Notes under the pieces: generated by a model
Databases searched by the model: none
Told to the model about the DNA's origin: nothing
The model's input: the letters and a program-made list of their open reading frames with translations, nothing else
Virus record (IMG/VR): IMGVR_UViG_3300036770_007999
Coordinates: 14,137 to 78,136 of that record
Reading direction: 5' to 3' (one strand)
DNA length: 64,000 bases
From: a virus
Part shown: piece by piece, positions 53,816 through 58,719 of the stretch
How the letters are laid out: every line of letters begins with the position of its first letter
Numbering within the stretch: position 1 is the first letter of the stretch
Program-made: the position numbers and the translations under genes

Positions 53816-54529
53816 ATGTTTCGCAATCATACCCCTTCTCTTGAATCAAGAAATTTCATCGATGGTGTTGATTTTACACGCGATGATCCCTGCATATTTG
53901 TAGTGTACCCAGCTGGCGCTGCCGGAGATCTACTAATATCAATCATCGACAAGCATTATCTGCGGACCGGTTGCGAATATTATGGAATATCCGACTCGGG
54001 CCGAGTGATGATCTATACCACAGATTACGAAGCAATAGATATAGAACTCGAACACACCGGACAGGTAACATTCGATCAACAATGGTTTTATGATTTAGCA
54101 GAAAAACTTGGACAAAGAAATCTCAATTACTCATTACTGGATCAAGTAATGTTTGGATGTCATTTACATAAAGAAGAACAGATAAAACAAATACTTGATA
54201 ATTTTAGTCAAGCAAAAATAATAAACATCCATCCGAAAGACGCGGCAGGGCAGGATCTGATCAACGAGTTGCGATCAATTAAGTTAGAAACTAAACTTGA
54301 TCAAAATCAAGAATTTTCTTCTACTGTGTTTCATCATGAAAGAGTTCTAAACATTCCATTTGGATGCTTATTTGACAAACCGTCTTATTCAATGTACTAT
54401 CACAAGATATTAGAGTTCCTAAAACTTGGACAGCGACAATTGATATCTTTCGACTACATCGACTTTTATCTTTCTAAACAAGACAAATCTATTGTATTGC
54501 GGTTGACGGAATACAGCAAACATCTATGA
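53816..54529 (+). CDS. Hypothetical protein (N-terminal YPAGAAGD loop, possibly sulfotransferase-like)
   Basis: 237-aa AT-rich ORF; ATGA overlap with gp46. Confidence 0.55.
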   Translation: MFRNHTPSLESRNFIDGVDFTRDDPCIFVVYPAGAAGDLLISIIDKHYLRTGCEYYGISDSGRVMIYTTDYEAIDIELEHTGQVTFDQQWFYDLAEKLGQRNLNYSLLDQVMFGCHLHKEEQIKQILDNFSQAKIINIHPKDAAGQDLINELRSIKLETKLDQNQEFSSTVFHHERVLNIPFGCLFDKPSYSMYYHKILEFLKLGQRQLISFDYIDFYLSKQDKSIVLRLTEYSKHL

Positions 54530-56289
54530 TTCATATCCGAGACCTCACGGTTAAAAACTTCATGAGTGTTGGGAACGCCACACAAGCCATCAATTTTGAC
54601 CGGCAAGATCTTACCCTTGTATTAGGAGAAAACCTAGACTTAGGCGGTGACGGAAGTCGAAATGGTACAGGAAAGACCACTATCATCAACGCGCTGAGTT
54701 ATGCTCTGTATGGTCAGGCTCTCACCAACATCCGACGAGACAATCTGATCAACAAAACCAATGGCAAGAACATGTTGGTCAGCCTTGATTTCAGTGTTAA
54801 CGGACAAAATTATCGGGTAGAGCGCGGCCGTAAGCCCAATGTGCTACGTCTATATGTCAATTCGGAAGAAAAACAGGCCACCGACGACGCACAAGGCGAT
54901 TCAAGAGAAACCCAGGATGCCATAGAATCCGCCCTGGGTATGACTCATGACATGTTCCGACATGTGTTAGCCTTGAATACTTACACCGAACCATTCCTGA
55001 GTCTCAAGTCCAATGACCAACGCACTATCATCGAGCAACTGCTGGGCATCACTCTCCTTAGCGAACGTGCTGAACGGATCAAAGAACTGAATCGCGCCAC
55101 CAAAGATGCGATCTCGCAGGAAGAAATGCGTATCCGGGCTGTGCAAGAAGCAAACAAAAGGATCGAAGAGCAGATCACTAGCCTGGAGAAACGACGAGAT
55201 CTCTGGATGAAAAAACAAGCCGAAGATTGTGCGCATTTCGAAACTGCCATTCGGGCTTTGGAACACATCGACATCGATGCCGAAGTACAGGCACACAGAG
55301 ATCTTGAAGCATATCACTTGAAGAAAAAACAGATCGACGAACATCAAAAGTGGATACGTCAGATCGAGCAAGATGATTCAAAATTGGCCAAAGACAGCGC
55401 CAAACTCCAGCGCGACATTGATGCCTTGCGAGATCATAGATGCCATGCCTGTGGACAAGAACTGCACGATTCAAAACAAGACGAGATCTTGGTTGAAAAA
55501 CAAAAGAATCTGCAAGAGATTGCCCTGCAATTACTCAGCAACGAAACACAGCGGATCGAGCACCGTAATGAGATAGAAGACCTTGGGGAGTTGGGTGTTG
55601 CTCCCACGGTGTTCTATGATGATCTGGAACAGGCTCTCAATCACAAGAACAGCCTAGATGGATTGAAGAAGGATCTCGCCAACAGATCTGCTGAAACTGA
55701 TCCTTACACCGAACAGATTGATGACATGCGAGGACAGGCCCTGCAAGAAGTCACATACGACACTGTGAACGAACTTACCAGATTGTTCGAGCATCAAGAC
55801 TTCTTGTTAAAACTACTCACCAACAAAGACAGTTTCGTGCGCAAGAAGATCATCGAACAGAACTTGAGTTATCTCAATCAACGTCTCACACACTATCTCG
55901 ATCGCATCGGGCTGCCGCATCAAGTGATCTTCCAGAACGATCTCACGGTAGAGATCACAGAACTGGGCAGAGATCTAGATTTTGATAATCTCTCTAGAGG
56001 TGAGCGCAATCGCCTGATCCTTTCGATGTCGTGGGCCTTCCGCGATGTTTGGGAGAGTTTGTATCATCCTATCAATGTGTTGTTCATTGACGAACTTGTT
56101 GATTCGGGCATGGACACACAGGGCGTGGAAAACAGTCTTGCGCTGTTGAAAAAGATGAGCCGTGATCGCAACAAATCGATCTGGCTGGTGAGCCACAGAG
56201 ACGAGTTGGCTGGGCGTGTAGAAAATATTTTGCGAGTGGTAAAAGAAAATGGATTCACTTCTTATAATTCTGACATCGATTTGTCATAA
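54526..56289 (+). CDS. gp46: Recombination ATPase, gp46 (Rad50/SbcC-like)
   Basis: KNFMSVG; NGTGKT Walker A; CHAC zinc hook; LSRGE signature; LFIDE; LVSH. Confidence 0.95.
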   Translation: MIHIRDLTVKNFMSVGNATQAINFDRQDLTLVLGENLDLGGDGSRNGTGKTTIINALSYALYGQALTNIRRDNLINKTNGKNMLVSLDFSVNGQNYRVERGRKPNVLRLYVNSEEKQATDDAQGDSRETQDAIESALGMTHDMFRHVLALNTYTEPFLSLKSNDQRTIIEQLLGITLLSERAERIKELNRATKDAISQEEMRIRAVQEANKRIEEQITSLEKRRDLWMKKQAEDCAHFETAIRALEHIDIDAEVQAHRDLEAYHLKKKQIDEHQKWIRQIEQDDSKLAKDSAKLQRDIDALRDHRCHACGQELHDSKQDEILVEKQKNLQEIALQLLSNETQRIEHRNEIEDLGELGVAPTVFYDDLEQALNHKNSLDGLKKDLANRSAETDPYTEQIDDMRGQALQEVTYDTVNELTRLFEHQDFLLKLLTNKDSFVRKKIIEQNLSYLNQRLTHYLDRIGLPHQVIFQNDLTVEITELGRDLDFDNLSRGERNRLILSMSWAFRDVWESLYHPINVLFIDELVDSGMDTQGVENSLALLKKMSRDRNKSIWLVSHRDELAGRVENILRVVKENGFTSYNSDIDLS

Positions 56290-56299
56290 ATTAAAATGA

Positions 56300-56740
56300 A
56301 TGACATGGCTCTACGAATCACAAGAAATCACAGAAATACCTCAAGAGTATGCCGGGTTTGTGTATCTCATAACCAATACACAGACTGGCAGGAAATATAT
56401 TGGCAAAAAATTATCAAAGTTTAGCAAGACGACATACCGGACAGAGAAACTCAAGAACGGCAAGAAACGACGTAAAAAAATCAGAGGCAAGATCGAGTCA
56501 GACTGGCAGACCTACTACGGTTCGTCGCCAGAACTCACCAGAGACGTAGAATCACTAGGCACAGAAAATTTCACACGCGAGATATTGTATTACTGTAAGA
56601 GCAAGGCTGAATGCAGTTATATAGAGGCTCGAGAACAATTCGCCCGTAGGGTACTTGAATCAGACGAATACTACAATGGTCACATACAGATTCGGGTACA
56701 TGGCTCACACATCAAAGGCAAACTAGGCTCAAACGGCTAG
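56300..56740 (+). CDS. Stand-alone GIY-YIG nuclease domain protein
   Basis: GFVYLITN..KYIGKK, YYGSS, REIL..E, YYN; basic insert KNGKKRRKKIRGK; no C-terminal DNA-binding domain. Confidence 0.8.
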   Translation: MTWLYESQEITEIPQEYAGFVYLITNTQTGRKYIGKKLSKFSKTTYRTEKLKNGKKRRKKIRGKIESDWQTYYGSSPELTRDVESLGTENFTREILYYCKSKAECSYIEAREQFARRVLESDEYYNGHIQIRVHGSHIKGKLGSNG

Positions 56741-57222
56741 CACCGGCCAAAATCGGGTGTCCTAGACCTGGATCTCGGATCACAGGGATGGAAGCCTCGC
56801 CGCGCCAGCGAGCACTCAACCACTACCCGCAAGGATGACGACGTCTCTAAGACCTGACGTTTGGTTGTTGGAAAAGGACGAAAGGCAAAATGAGGGGAGA
56901 GAAACCCCACGGCTACTGTTGTGATAGCGTATGACAGTAGACCCGCCGTTGTGATAAGACGGAGCGAGCAGGTACCGGACAACCGCCTGTAATCGCACAA
57001 AAAAATGTGTGACTAACCAGATAATTTGGCGTGATTCGTATAGTTTTTTGTGTGAATAGTTCTAACGCTGTGTGACTGCGCCACTCGGATGATGCAGATC
57101 TTGGCCCGGCCACGGGCTAAGTGTGACCACTTGATCTGGATGATACTGCATACTCGCTTCGCTCGTTTGATTCAATCCATCGATGAACGGAGTGAAATCG
57201 ATAGACTTGCGCAGCAAGTCTC
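56741..57222 (+). ncRNA. Putative large structured non-coding RNA/element (~480 nt)
   Basis: Only large gap in the window; more than 10 adjacent hairpins, several needing G-U pairs on the + strand; twin GTGTGAC-N10-GGATGAT motifs. Confidence 0.6.
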
Positions 57223-57555
57223 TTAGAACTGATCGGGCCAATCTCTCCAAAGTGCGTGTTGAATGTTTCCTGCAACAAACCGATTGAAACTTTTGTGTTT
57301 CTCTTCGAGTTCGCCTTCCAATGGAGCGACGCGACGGAATGCCTGATCCATCTGTGCCATGTCACGGAACTCCATAATAATAAGCCATTCTGGCATGTCT
57401 GCGATGCTGCGGAACCCCATCTTGCAGCGAGTGATTCTGTAGGTCTCCATCTTGCCCTCTGCTATCAAATGGTCAAAAAAGCCTTTCATGCCAGTGACCC
57501 ATTCTAGATCTGTGATGTCACCTTCTTTGTCCGCCCAAATAGTGTAGAGATCCAT
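57223..57555 (-). CDS. Small alpha/beta protein (DUF6614-like by recollection)
   Basis: YTIWAD..GKMETYRITRCKMGF..EWLIIMEF..ALWRDWPD. Confidence 0.55.
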   Translation of the reverse strand: MDLYTIWADKEGDITDLEWVTGMKGFFDHLIAEGKMETYRITRCKMGFRSIADMPEWLIIMEFRDMAQMDQAFRRVAPLEGELEEKHKSFNRFVAGNIQHALWRDWPDQF

Positions 57556-57990
57556 TTATTTCATTGCTCCCAAGATTTCAAATCCTGTGATGTCTAACAT
57601 GTAAGGTTCCAATGATTCAAAATACATCCATTGAAATCCTCGATCACGATATATTGCACACTCTGTTTCCAGGCTGTGAATGCCTAATCTAAGAGCAGGA
57701 TCACGATAGTCCCAGGCAAAATGATCACTGAGCACAGAATGTGTGCCCCAACAACGCAGCATGGTCCAGGCCACTAGTTTGCCTTGATGTCGATAACCAA
57801 TCACATCGGTGCCGGATTCTCTGAAACGCTCCGGCACCATGGGTATCACGCTCTGGAAGTGCTTGTGTCGGCAGTAGTCTCTGTAGATGCGCAGCAGTTC
57901 ATGTATCGGCGGATCTTTCAACAGTTCCCAATCAGTATTGATCTCATAATTGGTCTTTACTAGATTGATGCGTCCAAACTGCCAACTCAT
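57556..57990 (-). CDS. GNAT protein resembling the C-terminal domain of arginyl/leucyl-tRNA-protein transferase (ATE1/Bpt)
   Basis: YRHQGKLVAW..FAWDYRDPALRLGIHSLETECAIYRDRGFQWMY. Confidence 0.6.
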   Translation of the reverse strand: MSWQFGRINLVKTNYEINTDWELLKDPPIHELLRIYRDYCRHKHFQSVIPMVPERFRESGTDVIGYRHQGKLVAWTMLRCWGTHSVLSDHFAWDYRDPALRLGIHSLETECAIYRDRGFQWMYFESLEPYMLDITGFEILGAMK

Positions 57991-58481
57991 GATCTAGGAT
58001 CCTGCCGGCCTTCGAACAGCACTGCGAGATATTCTTCAGGCCATCCATGATAGTAACCGCGATCGGCCAGGGCACGGGCATGTGAATTCAACTTGCCCAA
58101 GGCCTGCACGAACACTATAGCCCATGTGCCCTGATTCATAGTCACTCCGTTCACGATCTCTGGAGAGTCGGGATGGTCTGGCAGCGCGATGAGATCACGC
58201 GCGAGCAGGAATCCTTGATTGGCGCGCTGCACCAGATCTTCGAACTCGGAAGCAGCAAAATCTTTTGGATCATACACAAATGCCAGCACATCCAGTGCAG
58301 CCAGATCCACATGCATGAGATCCCAGTAAGGTTCAGTGCCTCGACGAATTGAAAACTTATTTTCTATGCGGGCACGGCGCGCATATGGACAAGGCGGCCA
58401 TGCGCTCAAGGCTGGATGAGGTTGCTCCACGAAACCAGTCAGCCAAGTCATGATGTCTTGTTGAGCTCGATCAAAATCCAT
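57987..58481 (-). CDS. DUF1415-like protein
   Basis: W..FVE..PCPYA; LPDHP; C-terminal L..RGYY..W. Start refined to MDFDRA, 1 nt after the upstream stop. Confidence 0.5.
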   Translation of the reverse strand: MDFDRAQQDIMTWLTGFVEQPHPALSAWPPCPYARRARIENKFSIRRGTEPYWDLMHVDLAALDVLAFVYDPKDFAASEFEDLVQRANQGFLLARDLIALPDHPDSPEIVNGVTMNQGTWAIVFVQALGKLNSHARALADRGYYHGWPEEYLAVLFEGRQDPRS

Positions 58482-58482
58482 G

Positions 58483-58719
58483 CTAGAAAAATGGCAGTCC
58501 TGATTTTTTTGTAGTTTCAAGATTGTCCTTGATCAAGCGACCAATGATCTCTCGCTCCTGATAGCCAAGATTCATGGCTTCGGTAAAGGTCATTCCACCG
58601 CGCATGTACCAACACATCTTGAGTGCTTCTTCACGTATCTGTTTCGACTCCTGGTCCAGTTCCTCAACGATCTTGGCGATACGGTCAGGATCAGAGACTA
58701 GGAGTCGCGTGCGAAAAAA
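58483..58719 (-). CDS. gp51-like baseplate/tail assembly ORF, probably expressed by -1 frameshift from the gp26-like gene
   Basis: Translated by hand: FFRTRLLVSDPDRIAKIVEELDQESKQIREEALKMCWYMRGGMTFTEAMNLGYQEREIIGRLIKDNLETTKKSGLPFF*. First in-frame ATG is at 58617. Confidence 0.72.
   Translation of the reverse strand, partial: FFRTRLLVSDPDRIAKIVEELDQESKQIREEALKMCWYMRGGMTFTEAMNLGYQEREIIGRLIKDNLETTKKSGLPFF

What the first reader, a model, noticed from the sequence alone, without database searches (positions are those of the whole stretch)
56300..57222. Minimal GIY-YIG nuclease followed directly by a ~480-nt highly structured non-coding element: candidate nuclease-RNA system
Seen: the only large non-coding gap in a window where genes otherwise overlap begins right at the nuclease stop codon and is tiled with stems. 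Examples: CCTGGATC-TCG-GATCACAGG (56767-56786); CTCGC/GCGAG (56796-56812); CAACCA/TGGTTG enclosing CC-GCAA-GG and ACGTC/GACGT (56817-56867); GGGG/CCCC (56894-56908); CTACTGTTGT/ATGACAGTAG (56913-56940); CAGG/CCTG (56969-56989); CGCACAAAAAA/TTTTTTGTGTG (56994-57054); CTTGGCCCG/CGGGCTAAG (57100-57121). Several stems need G-U pairs, which favours a + strand RNA co-transcribed with the nuclease. The 146-aa protein is a bare catalytic domain with an Arg/Lys insert (KNGKKRRKKIRGK). Known: GIY-YIG homing endonucleases normally carry an appended DNA-recognition domain, and HEARO/omegaRNA show that large RNAs next to nuclease ORFs can supply specificity. Inference: this may be an undescribed ribonucleoprotein, either RNA-guided or RNA-scaffolded. 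I could not match it by eye to group I/II introns, RNase P RNA or tmRNA.
Basis: partly seen in the sequence, partly recalled or inferred. Interest (0 to 1): 0.9.

Follow-up and report, generated by a model that had tools for sequence, protein, structure and literature searches.

The report
Knotted twin-box phage RNA beside nuclease
The gene-free stretch behind a small DNA-cutting enzyme gene of this uncultured T4-like phage encodes a real, roughly 490-base knotted RNA; its first third is a catalogued but unexplained motif, and nothing shows that it guides the enzyme.

Summary
The 482-nt gap is real and is the window's only internal ORF-free stretch. It encodes, on the + strand, a ~488-nt non-coding RNA with three pseudoknots (56735-57222).

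- **Known part:** the first 136 nt are a full-length, 108-bit match to Rfam RF01718 (Polynucleobacter-1). This orphan motif was described in 2010 and already noted to lie behind this gene family.
- **Uncatalogued part:** the other ~350 nt have no Rfam match. They carry two 7-nt boxes that are always identical to each other.
- **Spread:** more than 250 uncultured T4-like phage loci share the RNA. 56 of 91 modelled pairs show compensatory changes.
- **Nuclease:** the 146-aa protein is a bare GIY-YIG nuclease (phrog_447). It ends within 21 nt of the RNA in about 90% of loci, so co-transcription is likely.

Nothing supports an RNA-guided or RNA-scaffolded nuclease:
- Homologous nuclease genes checked in four cultured phages lack the RNA.
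- Three contigs keep the RNA but carry a PD-(D/E)XK nuclease instead.
- No nuclease residue covaries with the boxes, and no third box copy lies nearby.

Best reading: an autonomous structured phage RNA that presents one word twice to an unknown reader. This scan has met the same RNA family many times on other DNA, with the same outcome.

The parts
56300..56740 (+). 146-aa bare GIY-YIG nuclease gene (phrog_447; Pfam SegE_GIY-YIG). It has no appended DNA-binding domain and a long beta-hairpin arm with a Lys/Arg tip (residues about 40-66).
   Evidence: Pfam PF19835 E 4e-34 over the whole 123-position model. phrog_447 E 9e-38. AlphaFold2 model pLDDT 83. Best sensible fold match is the I-TevI catalytic domain, 1ln0/1mk0, prob 0.82-0.85. 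GIY, YIG, R93, E109 and N126 are invariant in 25 relatives.
56735..57222 (+). Full-length structured non-coding RNA, 488 nt here and about 420 nt without the local insertion.
   Evidence: Conserved along its whole length in 35 distinct relatives. Covariation. Strand. Matched in 261 of the loci fetched, 177 of them full length.
56735..56870 (+). 5' module, equal to Rfam RF01718 Polynucleobacter-1 RNA.
   Evidence: cmscan 108.4 bits (gathering score 37), E 6.9e-24, model positions 1-141 of 141.
56735..56748 (+). Pseudoknot 1: GGC 56735-56737 pairs with GCC 56746-56748 in the loop of the first hairpin (56740-56744 with 56756-56760). The nuclease stop codon 56738-56740 lies between the two strands.
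   Evidence: 56736/56747 is G-C in 103 and A-U in 29 sequences; 56735/56748 is G-C 52, A-U 31, G-U 26. Helix 1.
56912..56941 (+). Long variable hairpin with the conserved loop GAUAGCGU.
   Evidence: 12 of 12 pairs show changes on both sides (helix 11).
56926..57069 (+). Pseudoknot 2: loop AGCGU 56926-56930 pairs with ACGCU 57065-57069.
   Evidence: 5 of 5 pairs compensatory and 100% paired in 35 sequences (helix 12). In 136 sequences: C-G 114 / U-A 21, and G-C 104 / A-U 31.
56948..56983 (+). Pseudoknot 3: GUUGU 56948-56952 pairs with ACAAC 56979-56983. The second strand lies inside the near-invariant core GGUACCGGACAACCGCC (56971-56987).
   Evidence: U-A 114 / C-G 22; G-C 131 / A-U 4; U-A 119 / A-U 8 / G-C 3. 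Core invariance.
56994..57054 (+). Lineage-specific A/T-run hairpin, inserted in a loop that carries other insertions in other relatives.
   Evidence: 77-92% gaps in 35 relatives. Alignments A1 and A2.
57070..57093 (+). Box 1: GUGUGA-N8-CUC followed by the 7-nt word GGAUGAU (57087-57093).
57100..57121 (+). Hairpin CUUGGCCCG/CGGGCUAAG between the two boxes.
   Evidence: Helix 18: 96% paired, 3 pairs compensatory.
57121..57144 (+). Box 2: GUGUGA-N8-UCU followed by the same 7-nt word GGAUGAU (57138-57144).
   Evidence: The first purine is identical in both boxes in 117 of 118 relatives, the second in 118 of 118. These purines changed at least 19 and 9 times on the tree, always in both boxes together.
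57145..57222 (+). 3' tail ending in the hairpin 57204-57209 / 57215-57220 with loop CGCAG. It abuts the stop codon of the convergent gene.
   Evidence: 6 of 6 pairs of the terminal hairpin are compensatory. The tail is shared with the otherwise different 'variant B' element of sister phages.

Best explanation
Window 56735-57222 (+) is a full-length member of a widespread, modular phage RNA family with three pseudoknots. Its 5' module is the Rfam motif Polynucleobacter-1; its 3' module and tail are uncatalogued.

**Shown:** the RNA-type covariation, the strand, the three pseudoknots, the two boxes that stay identical, and the near-constant position right behind a phrog_447 GIY-YIG nuclease gene.

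**Inferred:**
1. The RNA is made as the 3' end of the gp46-nuclease transcript. There are at most 21 nt between ORF and RNA, and here they overlap.
2. It folds once ribosomes have left the stop codon, which sits inside pseudoknot 1.
3. It then acts in trans as an autonomous folded RNA.
4. Its 3' module holds out the same 7-nt word twice, on either side of a hairpin. One reader reads the word twice, or a two-fold symmetric reader reads both copies.

The nuclease is a conserved neighbour and probably a co-transcribed gene. It is not a partner that needs the RNA for specificity.
For: - **Identity and structure:** RF01718 at 108 bits. Conservation runs through the whole gap. 56 of 91 pairs are compensatory, against 36.8 in shuffles and 20-28 when slid. 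Three long-range helices show compensatory changes. G-U 248 against A-C 43; z -3.0 on + and -0.7 on minus.
- **Not a 5' UTR:** the next gene is convergent.
- **Autonomy from the nuclease:**
  - phrog_447 homologues match in 779 phage records at 35-51% identity. The P-SSM2 homologue has the same length and the same Lys/Arg insert.
  - Melnitz, phiN3, S-SRM01 and a P-SSM2 piece show neither RF01718 nor the 3' domain.
  - L316, L318 and L378 keep the RNA. Their whole contigs (192, 166 and 83 kb) lack the GIY-YIG gene and have a PF24608 PD-(D/E)XK endonuclease upstream.
  - Genes of 0.5-1.2 kb sit between nuclease and RNA in 7 of 98 loci.
  - The Polynucleobacter chromosome copy in Weinberg's alignment has twin boxes with another word.
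- **Modularity:** 33 loci have the same 3' domain with a different 5' module and no RF01718.
- **Twin boxes:** identity in 117/118 and 118/118 sequences, with at least 28 joint changes. No third RNA column covaries comparably.
- **Core status:** of 80 loci found through gp46, none with enough sequence lacks both nuclease and RNA.
Against: - There is no direct evidence of transcription, of RNA ends or of stability. The only hint is short contigs of relatives in one freshwater metatranscriptome, at depths like the flanking genes, and these could come from DNA.
- The junction between nuclease and RNA is far tighter than that between gp46 and the nuclease: at most 21 nt against 14-2800 nt. A functional pair would also predict this.
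- In rare loci the nuclease is replaced by another small nuclease rather than by any other kind of gene.
Identity covariation could also come from alternative pairing with a shared invariant strand, or from short-patch gene conversion.
- Earlier scan notes say the RNA occurs in bacterial islands without the nuclease. I could not check this here. My only bacterial-genome hits were phage fragments binned into MAGs.
Confidence: 0.5

Rival explanations
1. Nuclease-RNA ribonucleoprotein. The RNA binds the bare GIY-YIG domain and supplies specificity or a scaffold, with the twin boxes as guide-like words.
For: - The ORF ends within -5 to +21 nt of the RNA in about 90% of loci, on the same strand.
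- The protein has no DNA-recognition domain and has a Lys/Arg-tipped beta arm.
- Two equivalent boxes could seat a dimer.
- In L378 another small nuclease takes the same place.
Against: - Homologues of the same length, and at least the P-SSM2 one with the same basic arm, work without any such RNA in cultured phages.
- The RNA persists without the GIY-YIG gene.
- The best mutual information between any nuclease column and the first box purine is 0.23 bit, although that purine changed at least 19 times.
- No third co-varying copy of the word lies within 2.5 kb in 140 loci.
- The word is only 7 nt long.
- Sister phages with a 70-75% identical nuclease carry a different RNA body.
Confidence: 0.12
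2. Homing-endonuclease hitch-hiking, as with T4 SegB in the tRNA cluster. The RNA gene is a conserved target or neighbour, and nucleases settle beside it and promote its inheritance in mixed infections.
For: - Pfam assigns the protein to the SegE GIY-YIG family.
- The region between gp46 and the RNA is plastic, with 14-2800 nt of variable genes.
- A PD-(D/E)XK endonuclease replaces the GIY-YIG gene in three contigs.
- Nuclease identity follows gp46 identity only loosely (Spearman 0.32).
Against: - The nuclease is close to fixed across a broad clade: 75 of 80 gp46-first loci show it, and the others comprise three RNA-only loci and two too short to judge. gp46 identity in the clade runs from 52 to 91%.
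- It is under strong purifying selection, with 73% mean column identity and invariant catalytic residues.
- It lacks the DNA-binding domain that gives Seg enzymes their site preference.
- Empty sites, expected for a sporadic selfish gene, were not seen.
Confidence: 0.1
3. A ribozyme or self-processing RNA. The knotted core with invariant unpaired nucleotides catalyses a reaction, for instance its own release from the mRNA.
For: - The RNA is large, has three pseudoknots and has near-invariant core stretches such as UCACAGGGAUGGAA and GGUACCGGACAACCGCC.
- It starts at or within 21 nt of the upstream stop codon, so a processing step is needed to free it.
Against: - No match to any ribozyme or intron family of Rfam at E up to 10.
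- The 5' module is exchangeable.
- No cleavage or joint was seen, but the data could not have shown one.
Confidence: 0.1
4. A cis-acting 3' UTR element that stabilises or throttles the nuclease mRNA.
For: - It lies directly 3' of the ORF.
- Pseudoknot 1 straddles the stop codon in this lineage.
- A conserved terminal hairpin ends the unit.
Against: - About 490 nt with three pseudoknots is far more than such roles need.
- In 7-10% of loci another gene lies between ORF and RNA.
- The ORF-to-RNA distance varies from -5 to +21 nt, so the stop-codon overlap is not conserved.
- The RNA exists without the nuclease.
Confidence: 0.08
5. A DNA-level element, such as a replication origin or a nicking or packaging signal made of DNA hairpins.
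Against: - Strand asymmetry: G-U 248 against A-C 43, and z -3.0 against -0.7.
- Loop-to-linker pseudoknots with compensatory changes.
- A covariance-model match to an RNA family.
Confidence: 0.02

Closest known systems
Polynucleobacter-1 RNA motif (Rfam RF01718; Weinberg et al. 2010, Genome Biol 11:R31, PMC2864571)
   Same: Window 56735-56870 matches the whole 141-position model at 108 bits. The position behind a GOS11034/PSSM2_218-family gene is the same. PSSM2_218 is 36% identical to the window's nuclease (E 2e-21). The function is unknown in both.
   Different: The Rfam model covers only the first 28% of the RNA. The 3' domain with pseudoknots 2 and 3, the twin boxes and the tail are not modelled. 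33 relatives have that 3' domain with another 5' module and do not match RF01718. The 2010 text does not say the neighbour is a GIY-YIG nuclease, and it found no copy in a purified phage.
HEARO / omega RNA with IscB or TnpB (OMEGA systems)
   Same: A large structured RNA is encoded next to a small nuclease gene on the same strand.
   Different: In OMEGA systems the RNA is obligatory for the nuclease, carries a long guide at one end and sits at a transposon end. Here the nuclease family mostly lacks the RNA, the RNA can lack the nuclease, the variable words are 7 nt and duplicated, and no transposon ends or targets were found. There is no Rfam match to HEARO.
GOLLD, ROOL and OLE: large ornate RNAs of unknown function, often phage-borne (Weinberg et al. 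2009; Kretsch et al. 2025, PMC12286853)
   Same: Large size, many pseudoknots, phage or prophage location, unknown job, discovery by comparative genomics. Homo-oligomeric assembly, as shown for those RNAs, is one way in which repeated identical elements could matter.
   Different: There is no sequence or model similarity. This RNA is smaller. No oligomer has been shown for it. The identity-covarying twin boxes have no described counterpart in those RNAs, as far as I know.
T4 Seg-type free-standing GIY-YIG homing endonucleases (SegE; SegB in the tRNA gene cluster)
   Same: The catalytic domain belongs to Pfam SegE_GIY-YIG. A T4-like phage nuclease gene sits beside genes for structured RNA.
   Different: There is no C-terminal DNA-binding region: 146 aa here against about 205 aa for T4 SegE (the T4 length is from my own knowledge). 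The gene is near-universal and conserved in its clade rather than sporadic.
IS110-family bridge RNA
   Same: One RNA has two separate loops whose variable letters must agree with each other in part, next to a DNA-cutting and joining enzyme. This is a resemblance from my own knowledge and only a lead.
   Different: No DEDD recombinase or insertion-sequence ends are present. The boxes are direct copies of 7 nt rather than pairs of guides. No donor or target sites were found.
Group I intron with an I-TevI-type GIY-YIG ORF
   Same: A GIY-YIG ORF lies next to a complex folded RNA in a T4-like phage.
   Different: There is no Rfam intron match at E up to 10. The upstream gene gp46 is complete, at 587 aa with its own stop codon. 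The downstream gene is on the other strand, so there are no exons to join.

Membership tests
Rfam RF01718 Polynucleobacter-1 RNA | Covariance-model score above the curated gathering score over the whole model. | tested here: met
   108.4 bits against 37, model positions 1-141 of 141, E 6.9e-24.
Rfam RF01718 Polynucleobacter-1 RNA | The model's helices are kept by compensatory changes in relatives. | tested here: met
   Helices 2, 4, 5, 6 and 8 each have 2-5 pairs changed on both sides.
Rfam RF01718 Polynucleobacter-1 RNA | Lies downstream of a GOS11034 / PSSM2_218-family gene (supplement of Weinberg 2010). | tested here: met
   The upstream ORF is 36% identical to PSSM2_218, E 2e-21.
GIY-YIG nuclease superfamily (Pfam PF19835 SegE_GIY-YIG) | Profile match over the catalytic domain, with the GIY and YIG motifs and the conserved Arg, Glu and Asn. 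| tested here: met
   E 4e-34 over positions 1-123 of 123. G19-V21-Y22, Y33-G35, R93, E109 and N126 are invariant in 25 relatives. The assignment of these residues to catalytic roles is by analogy, not by assay.
GIY-YIG nuclease superfamily | GIY-YIG alpha/beta fold. | tested here: inconclusive
   The Foldseek E-value is weak (0.48-0.52). Even so, the I-TevI catalytic domain is the only sensible match, with prob 0.82-0.85 and TM 0.63 on the target. The long inserted beta arm lowers the score.
Seg-type homing endonuclease | An appended DNA-binding domain that confers site preference. | tested here: not met
   The 146 aa comprise the domain plus about 17 residues. The Pfam domain model spans residues 3-129, and the C-terminal residues have low confidence in the model.
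Seg-type homing endonuclease | Sporadic presence among close relatives, with empty sites. | tested here: not met
   Of 80 loci found through gp46, 75 show the nuclease, three have the RNA only and two are too short to judge. None with enough sequence lacks both.
RNA-guided nuclease (OMEGA or CRISPR-like) | The nuclease family and the RNA co-occur obligatorily. | tested here: not met
   The four cultured phages checked lack the RNA. Three contigs and the Polynucleobacter copy have the RNA without this nuclease nearby.
RNA-guided nuclease (OMEGA or CRISPR-like) | A variable guide segment with matching targets. | tested here: inconclusive
   The variable 7-nt words exist, but they are duplicated and short. 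No further co-varying copy lies within 2.5 kb. Targets elsewhere, for instance in the host, could not be searched because the host is unknown.
RNA-guided nuclease (OMEGA or CRISPR-like) | Physical binding of RNA and protein, and RNA-dependent cleavage. | not testable with these tools
   This needs biochemistry. No protein-RNA covariation was seen.
Group I or group II intron | A match to intron covariance models, and flanking exons of one gene. | tested here: not met
   No Rfam hit other than RF01718 at E up to 10 in 55500-58500. gp46 is complete and the downstream gene is convergent.
Riboswitch or cis-regulatory 5' leader | Lies upstream of the regulated gene, on the same strand. | tested here: not met
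   In the window the next gene (57223-57555) is on the minus strand. In relatives a T4 late-promoter word, TATAAATA, separates the RNA from the next gene.

The most novel reading that the evidence does not exclude
The two always-identical 7-nt boxes are programmable specificity words. Each pairs with a copy of the same nucleic-acid sequence, for instance holding two DNA or RNA molecules in register. They would do this for the small DNA-cutting enzyme encoded next door: GIY-YIG in most phages, PD-(D/E)XK in some. That would make this an RNA-directed nuclease or recombination system of a new kind.
Probability: 0.05. Interest if true: 0.95.

Novelty: new variant of a known kind. Interest (0 to 1): 0.6.

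Why it matters
Large, intricately knotted RNAs are rare, and those solved so far turned out to be ribozymes, riboswitch-like sensors or self-assembling cages.

This one is common in uncultured freshwater and marine T4-like phages, yet only its first third is catalogued, and that third is an orphan. Two features make it a good experimental target:
- It has a modular build: exchangeable 5' modules on a constant 3' domain.
- It has two 7-nt boxes that changed together at least 28 times. This is identity covariation, which ordinary base pairing does not explain.

For annotation, the result also settles two points. The gap is a gene. The neighbouring 'NAD synthetase' of many phage records is a GIY-YIG nuclease.

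Tried and rejected
- **Other known RNAs:** the rest of the gap (56871-57222) has no Rfam hit at E up to 10, and the window has no tRNA or tmRNA.
- **Cultured phage with the RNA:** blastn of 56300-57300 against 50,697 phage records found nothing. RF01718 and my 3'-domain model found nothing in Melnitz, phiN3 or S-SRM01, and the 3'-domain model found nothing in a 40-kb piece of P-SSM2.
- **Expression:** no RNA holder was listed for the stretch. Laying three freshwater metatranscriptome runs at 80% likeness gave only a few short contigs of relatives, over the RNA and over flanking genes alike. These show neither transcription nor ends.
- **Bacterial copies:** the single genome-contig scan gave two true hits, both phage fragments in MAG bins, plus one chance hit. 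I therefore could not check the bacterial-island claim of earlier notes.
- **Partner strand for the boxes inside the RNA:** the best candidate (56865-56875, U/G-rich) pairs only through invariant U, so covariation cannot test it. No third column has comparable mutual information.
- **Protein-RNA covariation:** none was seen.
- **A third copy of the box word near the locus:** none was found.
- **Sigma-70 promoters and intrinsic terminators:** nothing convincing at the RNA's ends.
- **Solved structures by sequence:** no hit.
- **Read-through of the UAG into the RNA:** rejected, because the ORF end varies from -5 to +21 nt relative to the RNA.
- **Two helices I added by hand** (A1 columns 294-295/316-317 and 310-311/313-314) failed the count and are dropped.
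- **One literature query** timed out.
Full report
**What is there**

The window is part of a 78-kb IMG/VR contig of an uncultured T4-like phage. A gp46 (Rad50/SbcC-like) gene at 54526-56289 is followed by a 146-aa ORF at 56300-56740. Then comes a 482-nt stretch without ORFs, up to the stop codon of a convergent DUF6614 gene at 57223-57555. No other internal stretch of at least 200 nt in the window is free of ORFs of at least 90 aa.

**A known family, in part**

A scan of 55500-58500 against Rfam 15 gave one strong match: RF01718, Polynucleobacter-1 RNA, at 56735-56870 on the + strand. It scores 108.4 bits against a gathering score of 37 (E 6.9e-24) and covers all 141 model positions. Nothing else in the gap matched at E up to 10, and there are no tRNA or tmRNA genes.

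The only paper in the library that names the motif is Weinberg et al. 2010. Its supplement makes three points. The 3' half is not always detected. Most copies lie downstream of genes of family GOS11034, with possible homology to PSSM2_218 of cyanophage P-SSM2. No copy was found in a purified phage. PSSM2_218 is a 145-aa protein that is 36% identical to the window's ORF (E 2e-21).

**The RNA is much longer than the Rfam model**

A 14-mer from the motif core pulled 120 viral contigs, and 43 of them hold the motif. An alignment of 35 distinct copies shows conservation through the whole gap:
- 56735-56994 is conserved.
- 56995-57054 is an insertion peculiar to this lineage.
- 57055-57222 is conserved again, down to a terminal hairpin.

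RNAalifold finds 82 pairs, 47 of them with compensatory changes. I curated a structure of 91 pairs, including two pseudoknots, and counted it on the alignment:

| measure | observed | shuffled | partners slid |
|---|---|---|---|
| cells forming a standard pair | 92.8% | 80.0% | 34-40% |
| pairs changed on both sides | 56 | 36.8 | 20-28 |

No shuffle in 500 reached the observed values.

Three long-range helices cross the nested structure:
- **Pseudoknot 1:** GGC 56735-56737 with GCC 56746-56748.
- **Pseudoknot 2:** AGCGU 56926-56930 with ACGCU 57065-57069. All five pairs are compensatory and 100% paired.
- **Pseudoknot 3:** GUUGU 56948-56952 with ACAAC 56979-56983.

The strand is +. There are 248 G-U cells against 43 A-C cells. 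The fold z-score is -3.0 on the + strand and -0.7 on the minus strand. Among all loci fetched, 261 match the profile and 177 are full length, giving 136 distinct sequences.

**Linkage to the nuclease**

| how loci were found | result |
|---|---|
| from the RF01718 motif | In 40 of 43 loci a homologue of the ORF ends between -5 and +21 nt from the RNA start, on the same strand. Two of the other three have the gene 0.9-1.8 kb upstream; in the third the motif sits at a contig end. |
| from the protein | 72 of 75 evaluable close homologues (65-94% identity) have the RNA downstream. |
| from a 3'-domain pattern | 89 adjacent, 7 with a 0.5-1.2 kb insert, 2 with no nuclease in 1.1-1.7 kb of upstream sequence. 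|
| from gp46 | Of 80 loci, 47 show both. 28 show the nuclease but no RNA, mostly because the contig ends. 3 show the RNA only. None with enough sequence lacks both. |

The distance from gp46 to the nuclease varies from 14 to 2800 nt. The junction between nuclease and RNA is almost always tight. Co-transcription is therefore the economical reading. No convincing promoter or intrinsic terminator was found by consensus scans. In many relatives the T4 late-promoter word TATAAATA follows the terminal hairpin and marks the start of the next unit.

**The protein**

It matches Pfam SegE_GIY-YIG over the entire domain model (E 4e-34) and phrog_447 over its entire length. Many RefSeq records call phrog_447 proteins 'NAD synthetase'.

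An AlphaFold2 model (pLDDT 83) shows the GIY-YIG core with a long beta-hairpin arm (residues 40-66) tipped by the Lys/Arg run. The only sensible structural match is the I-TevI catalytic domain. The motif residues are invariant in 25 relatives.

This is true of the whole family, however. Homologues at 35-51% identity match in 779 phage records, including 339 Synechococcus phages. The P-SSM2 homologue has the same length and the same basic insert. Homologous genes in Melnitz, phiN3, S-SRM01 and P-SSM2 are followed at once by another gene or by at most 148 nt. Neither RF01718 nor my covariance model of the 3' domain finds anything in these phages.

**Modularity and exceptions**

- Thirty-three loci have the 3' domain behind a different, mutually similar 5' module of about 190 nt. 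Twenty of them were scanned and none reaches the RF01718 threshold.
- A group of sister contigs (L335, L340, L334 and others) has the nuclease followed by a different 390-470-nt ORF-free element. It shares only the 3' tail with this RNA, has no Rfam match, shows 24 compensatory pairs among eight copies, and also repeats a 9-mer twice.
- In L316, L318 and L378 the RNA is present but the whole contigs (192, 166 and 83 kb) lack the GIY-YIG gene. A PF24608 PD-(D/E)XK endonuclease lies upstream, directly adjacent in L378.
- Weinberg's alignment shows the Polynucleobacter chromosome copy with flanks that carry twin boxes of another word: CUCAGCGAAAGU and UCUAGCGAAAGU.

**The twin boxes**

The 3' domain contains two direct copies of GUGUGA-N8-YUY-RGAURAU, at 57070-57093 and 57121-57144, flanking a hairpin. 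A separate first-reader note on this window pointed to them.

In 118 distinct relatives the first purine of the word is the same in both boxes in 117, and the second in all 118. All four combinations of the two purines occur, and rarer changes at the next position are also matched in both boxes. On a tree built from the rest of the RNA, the two purines changed at least 19 and 9 times, always in both boxes at once. Mutual information between the boxes is 0.93 and 1.0 bit. No third RNA column comes close.

This is identity covariation, not Watson-Crick covariation, and I cannot explain it. The possibilities I see are:
- one reader used twice, or a symmetric reader;
- alternative pairing of either box with one invariant U-rich strand, the best candidate being 56865-56875;
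- purine-purine contacts between the boxes;
- short-patch gene conversion.

**Tests of the guide or ribonucleoprotein idea**

- No column of 88 nuclease sequences covaries with the box purines. The best mutual information is 0.23 bit for the first purine; the 0.57 bit for the second lies in the variable C-terminus and fits shared ancestry.
- No third copy of a locus's own word recurs at a fixed place within 2.5 kb in 140 loci.
- The nuclease family works without the RNA elsewhere, and the RNA persists without the nuclease (see above).
- Nuclease identity follows gp46 identity only weakly (Spearman 0.32). The nuclease is the better conserved of the two, which fits a selected core gene rather than a decaying selfish one.

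**Expression**

No RNA run was listed as holding the stretch. In one freshwater metatranscriptome, short contigs of relatives touch 56735-56990, at depths like those over gp46 and the DUF6614 gene. This is compatible with transcription but does not show it.

**Reading**

The element is a real RNA gene of a family whose 5' module is catalogued and whose larger part is not. I think it is most likely an autonomous, trans-acting folded RNA made from the 3' end of the gp46-nuclease transcript. Its constant 3' domain would present one short word twice to an unknown reader (confidence about 0.5). The fold and the linkage are shown; the rest is inference.

The rivals are:

| rival | confidence |
|---|---|
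| nuclease-RNA particle | 0.12 |
| homing-endonuclease hitch-hiking, as with SegB and the T4 tRNA genes | 0.10 |
| ribozyme | 0.10 |
| 3' UTR element | 0.08 |
| DNA-level signal | 0.02 |

**Novelty**

The hit to RF01718 makes the 5' third known. The full-length architecture is not described in the papers I could search. That architecture comprises the exchangeable 5' modules, three pseudoknots and the identity-covarying boxes.

Earlier follow-ups of this same scan on other genomes reached the same description, under the name 'twin-box RNA', and the same open question. I confirmed their main points independently here. I could not check their statement that bacterial genomic islands carry the RNA without the nuclease.

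Noticed in passing
L335:7436-7822; L340:10436-10903 (also L334, L345/L177, L189, L196, L322/L143, L357/L167): Sister phages with a 70-75% identical nuclease carry a different 390-470-nt ORF-free element ('variant B') in the same place. Eight distinct copies give 121 RNAalifold pairs, 24 of them compensatory. The 9-mer UAGCAUACG occurs twice, 104 nt apart. It has no Rfam hit, and only its 3' tail is shared with the window RNA.
   Followed up: partly
L146 and 32 further loci, between the nuclease stop and the 3' domain: A second type of 5' module, about 190 nt long and forming one BLAST cluster, replaces the Polynucleobacter-1 module in front of the same twin-box 3' domain. Rfam does not recognise these RNAs at all.
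   Followed up: partly
L378:6960-7463; L316:7771-8283 (and L318): In three contigs the GIY-YIG gene is absent from the whole contig. A PF24608 'phage putative PDDEXK endonuclease' lies upstream of the RNA, directly adjacent in L378.
   Followed up: partly
window 56994-57054: The A-run/T-run hairpin is an insertion in one loop of the RNA. Other relatives carry unrelated insertions of 20-60 nt at the same spot (L067/L104, L070, L139, L032, L129, L130). The loop therefore tolerates expansion.
   Followed up: no
window 56738-56740: The nuclease stop codon UAG lies between the two strands of pseudoknot 1 and touches the first hairpin. A terminating ribosome and the folded 5' end exclude each other on one molecule. 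The overlap is limited to this lineage; elsewhere the ORF ends up to 21 nt upstream.
   Followed up: partly
L205:26712-27149 (P-SSM2 PSSM2_218) and many RefSeq phage records: Proteins of phrog_447 are annotated 'NAD synthetase', although they match the GIY-YIG domain of SegE over their whole length. This is probably a propagated misnomer.
   Followed up: partly
Polynucleobacter chromosome NC_009379.1:2130672-2131206, as printed in Weinberg's Stockholm file: The bacterial copy has twin boxes with the word AGCGAAA(G). The same word also stands a third time in the stretch that corresponds to the GGUACCGGACAACCGCC core (GAUAGCGAAACCGCC). The phage clade shows no such third copy.
   Followed up: no
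relatives in alignment A1, just after the terminal hairpin (e.g. L022, L062, L065): The T4 late-promoter word TATAAATA follows the RNA's terminal hairpin in many loci where the next gene is on the same strand. This places the RNA at the end of an early or middle transcription unit.
   Followed up: no
L392 and L394 (MAG contigs labelled Flavobacteriales and Bacteroidetes): Both 'bacterial' hits to the 3' domain are short contigs. L394 encodes T4-like tail genes like those of the window, so it is a phage fragment binned into a MAG. L392 (1.7 kb) was not examined further.
   Followed up: partly
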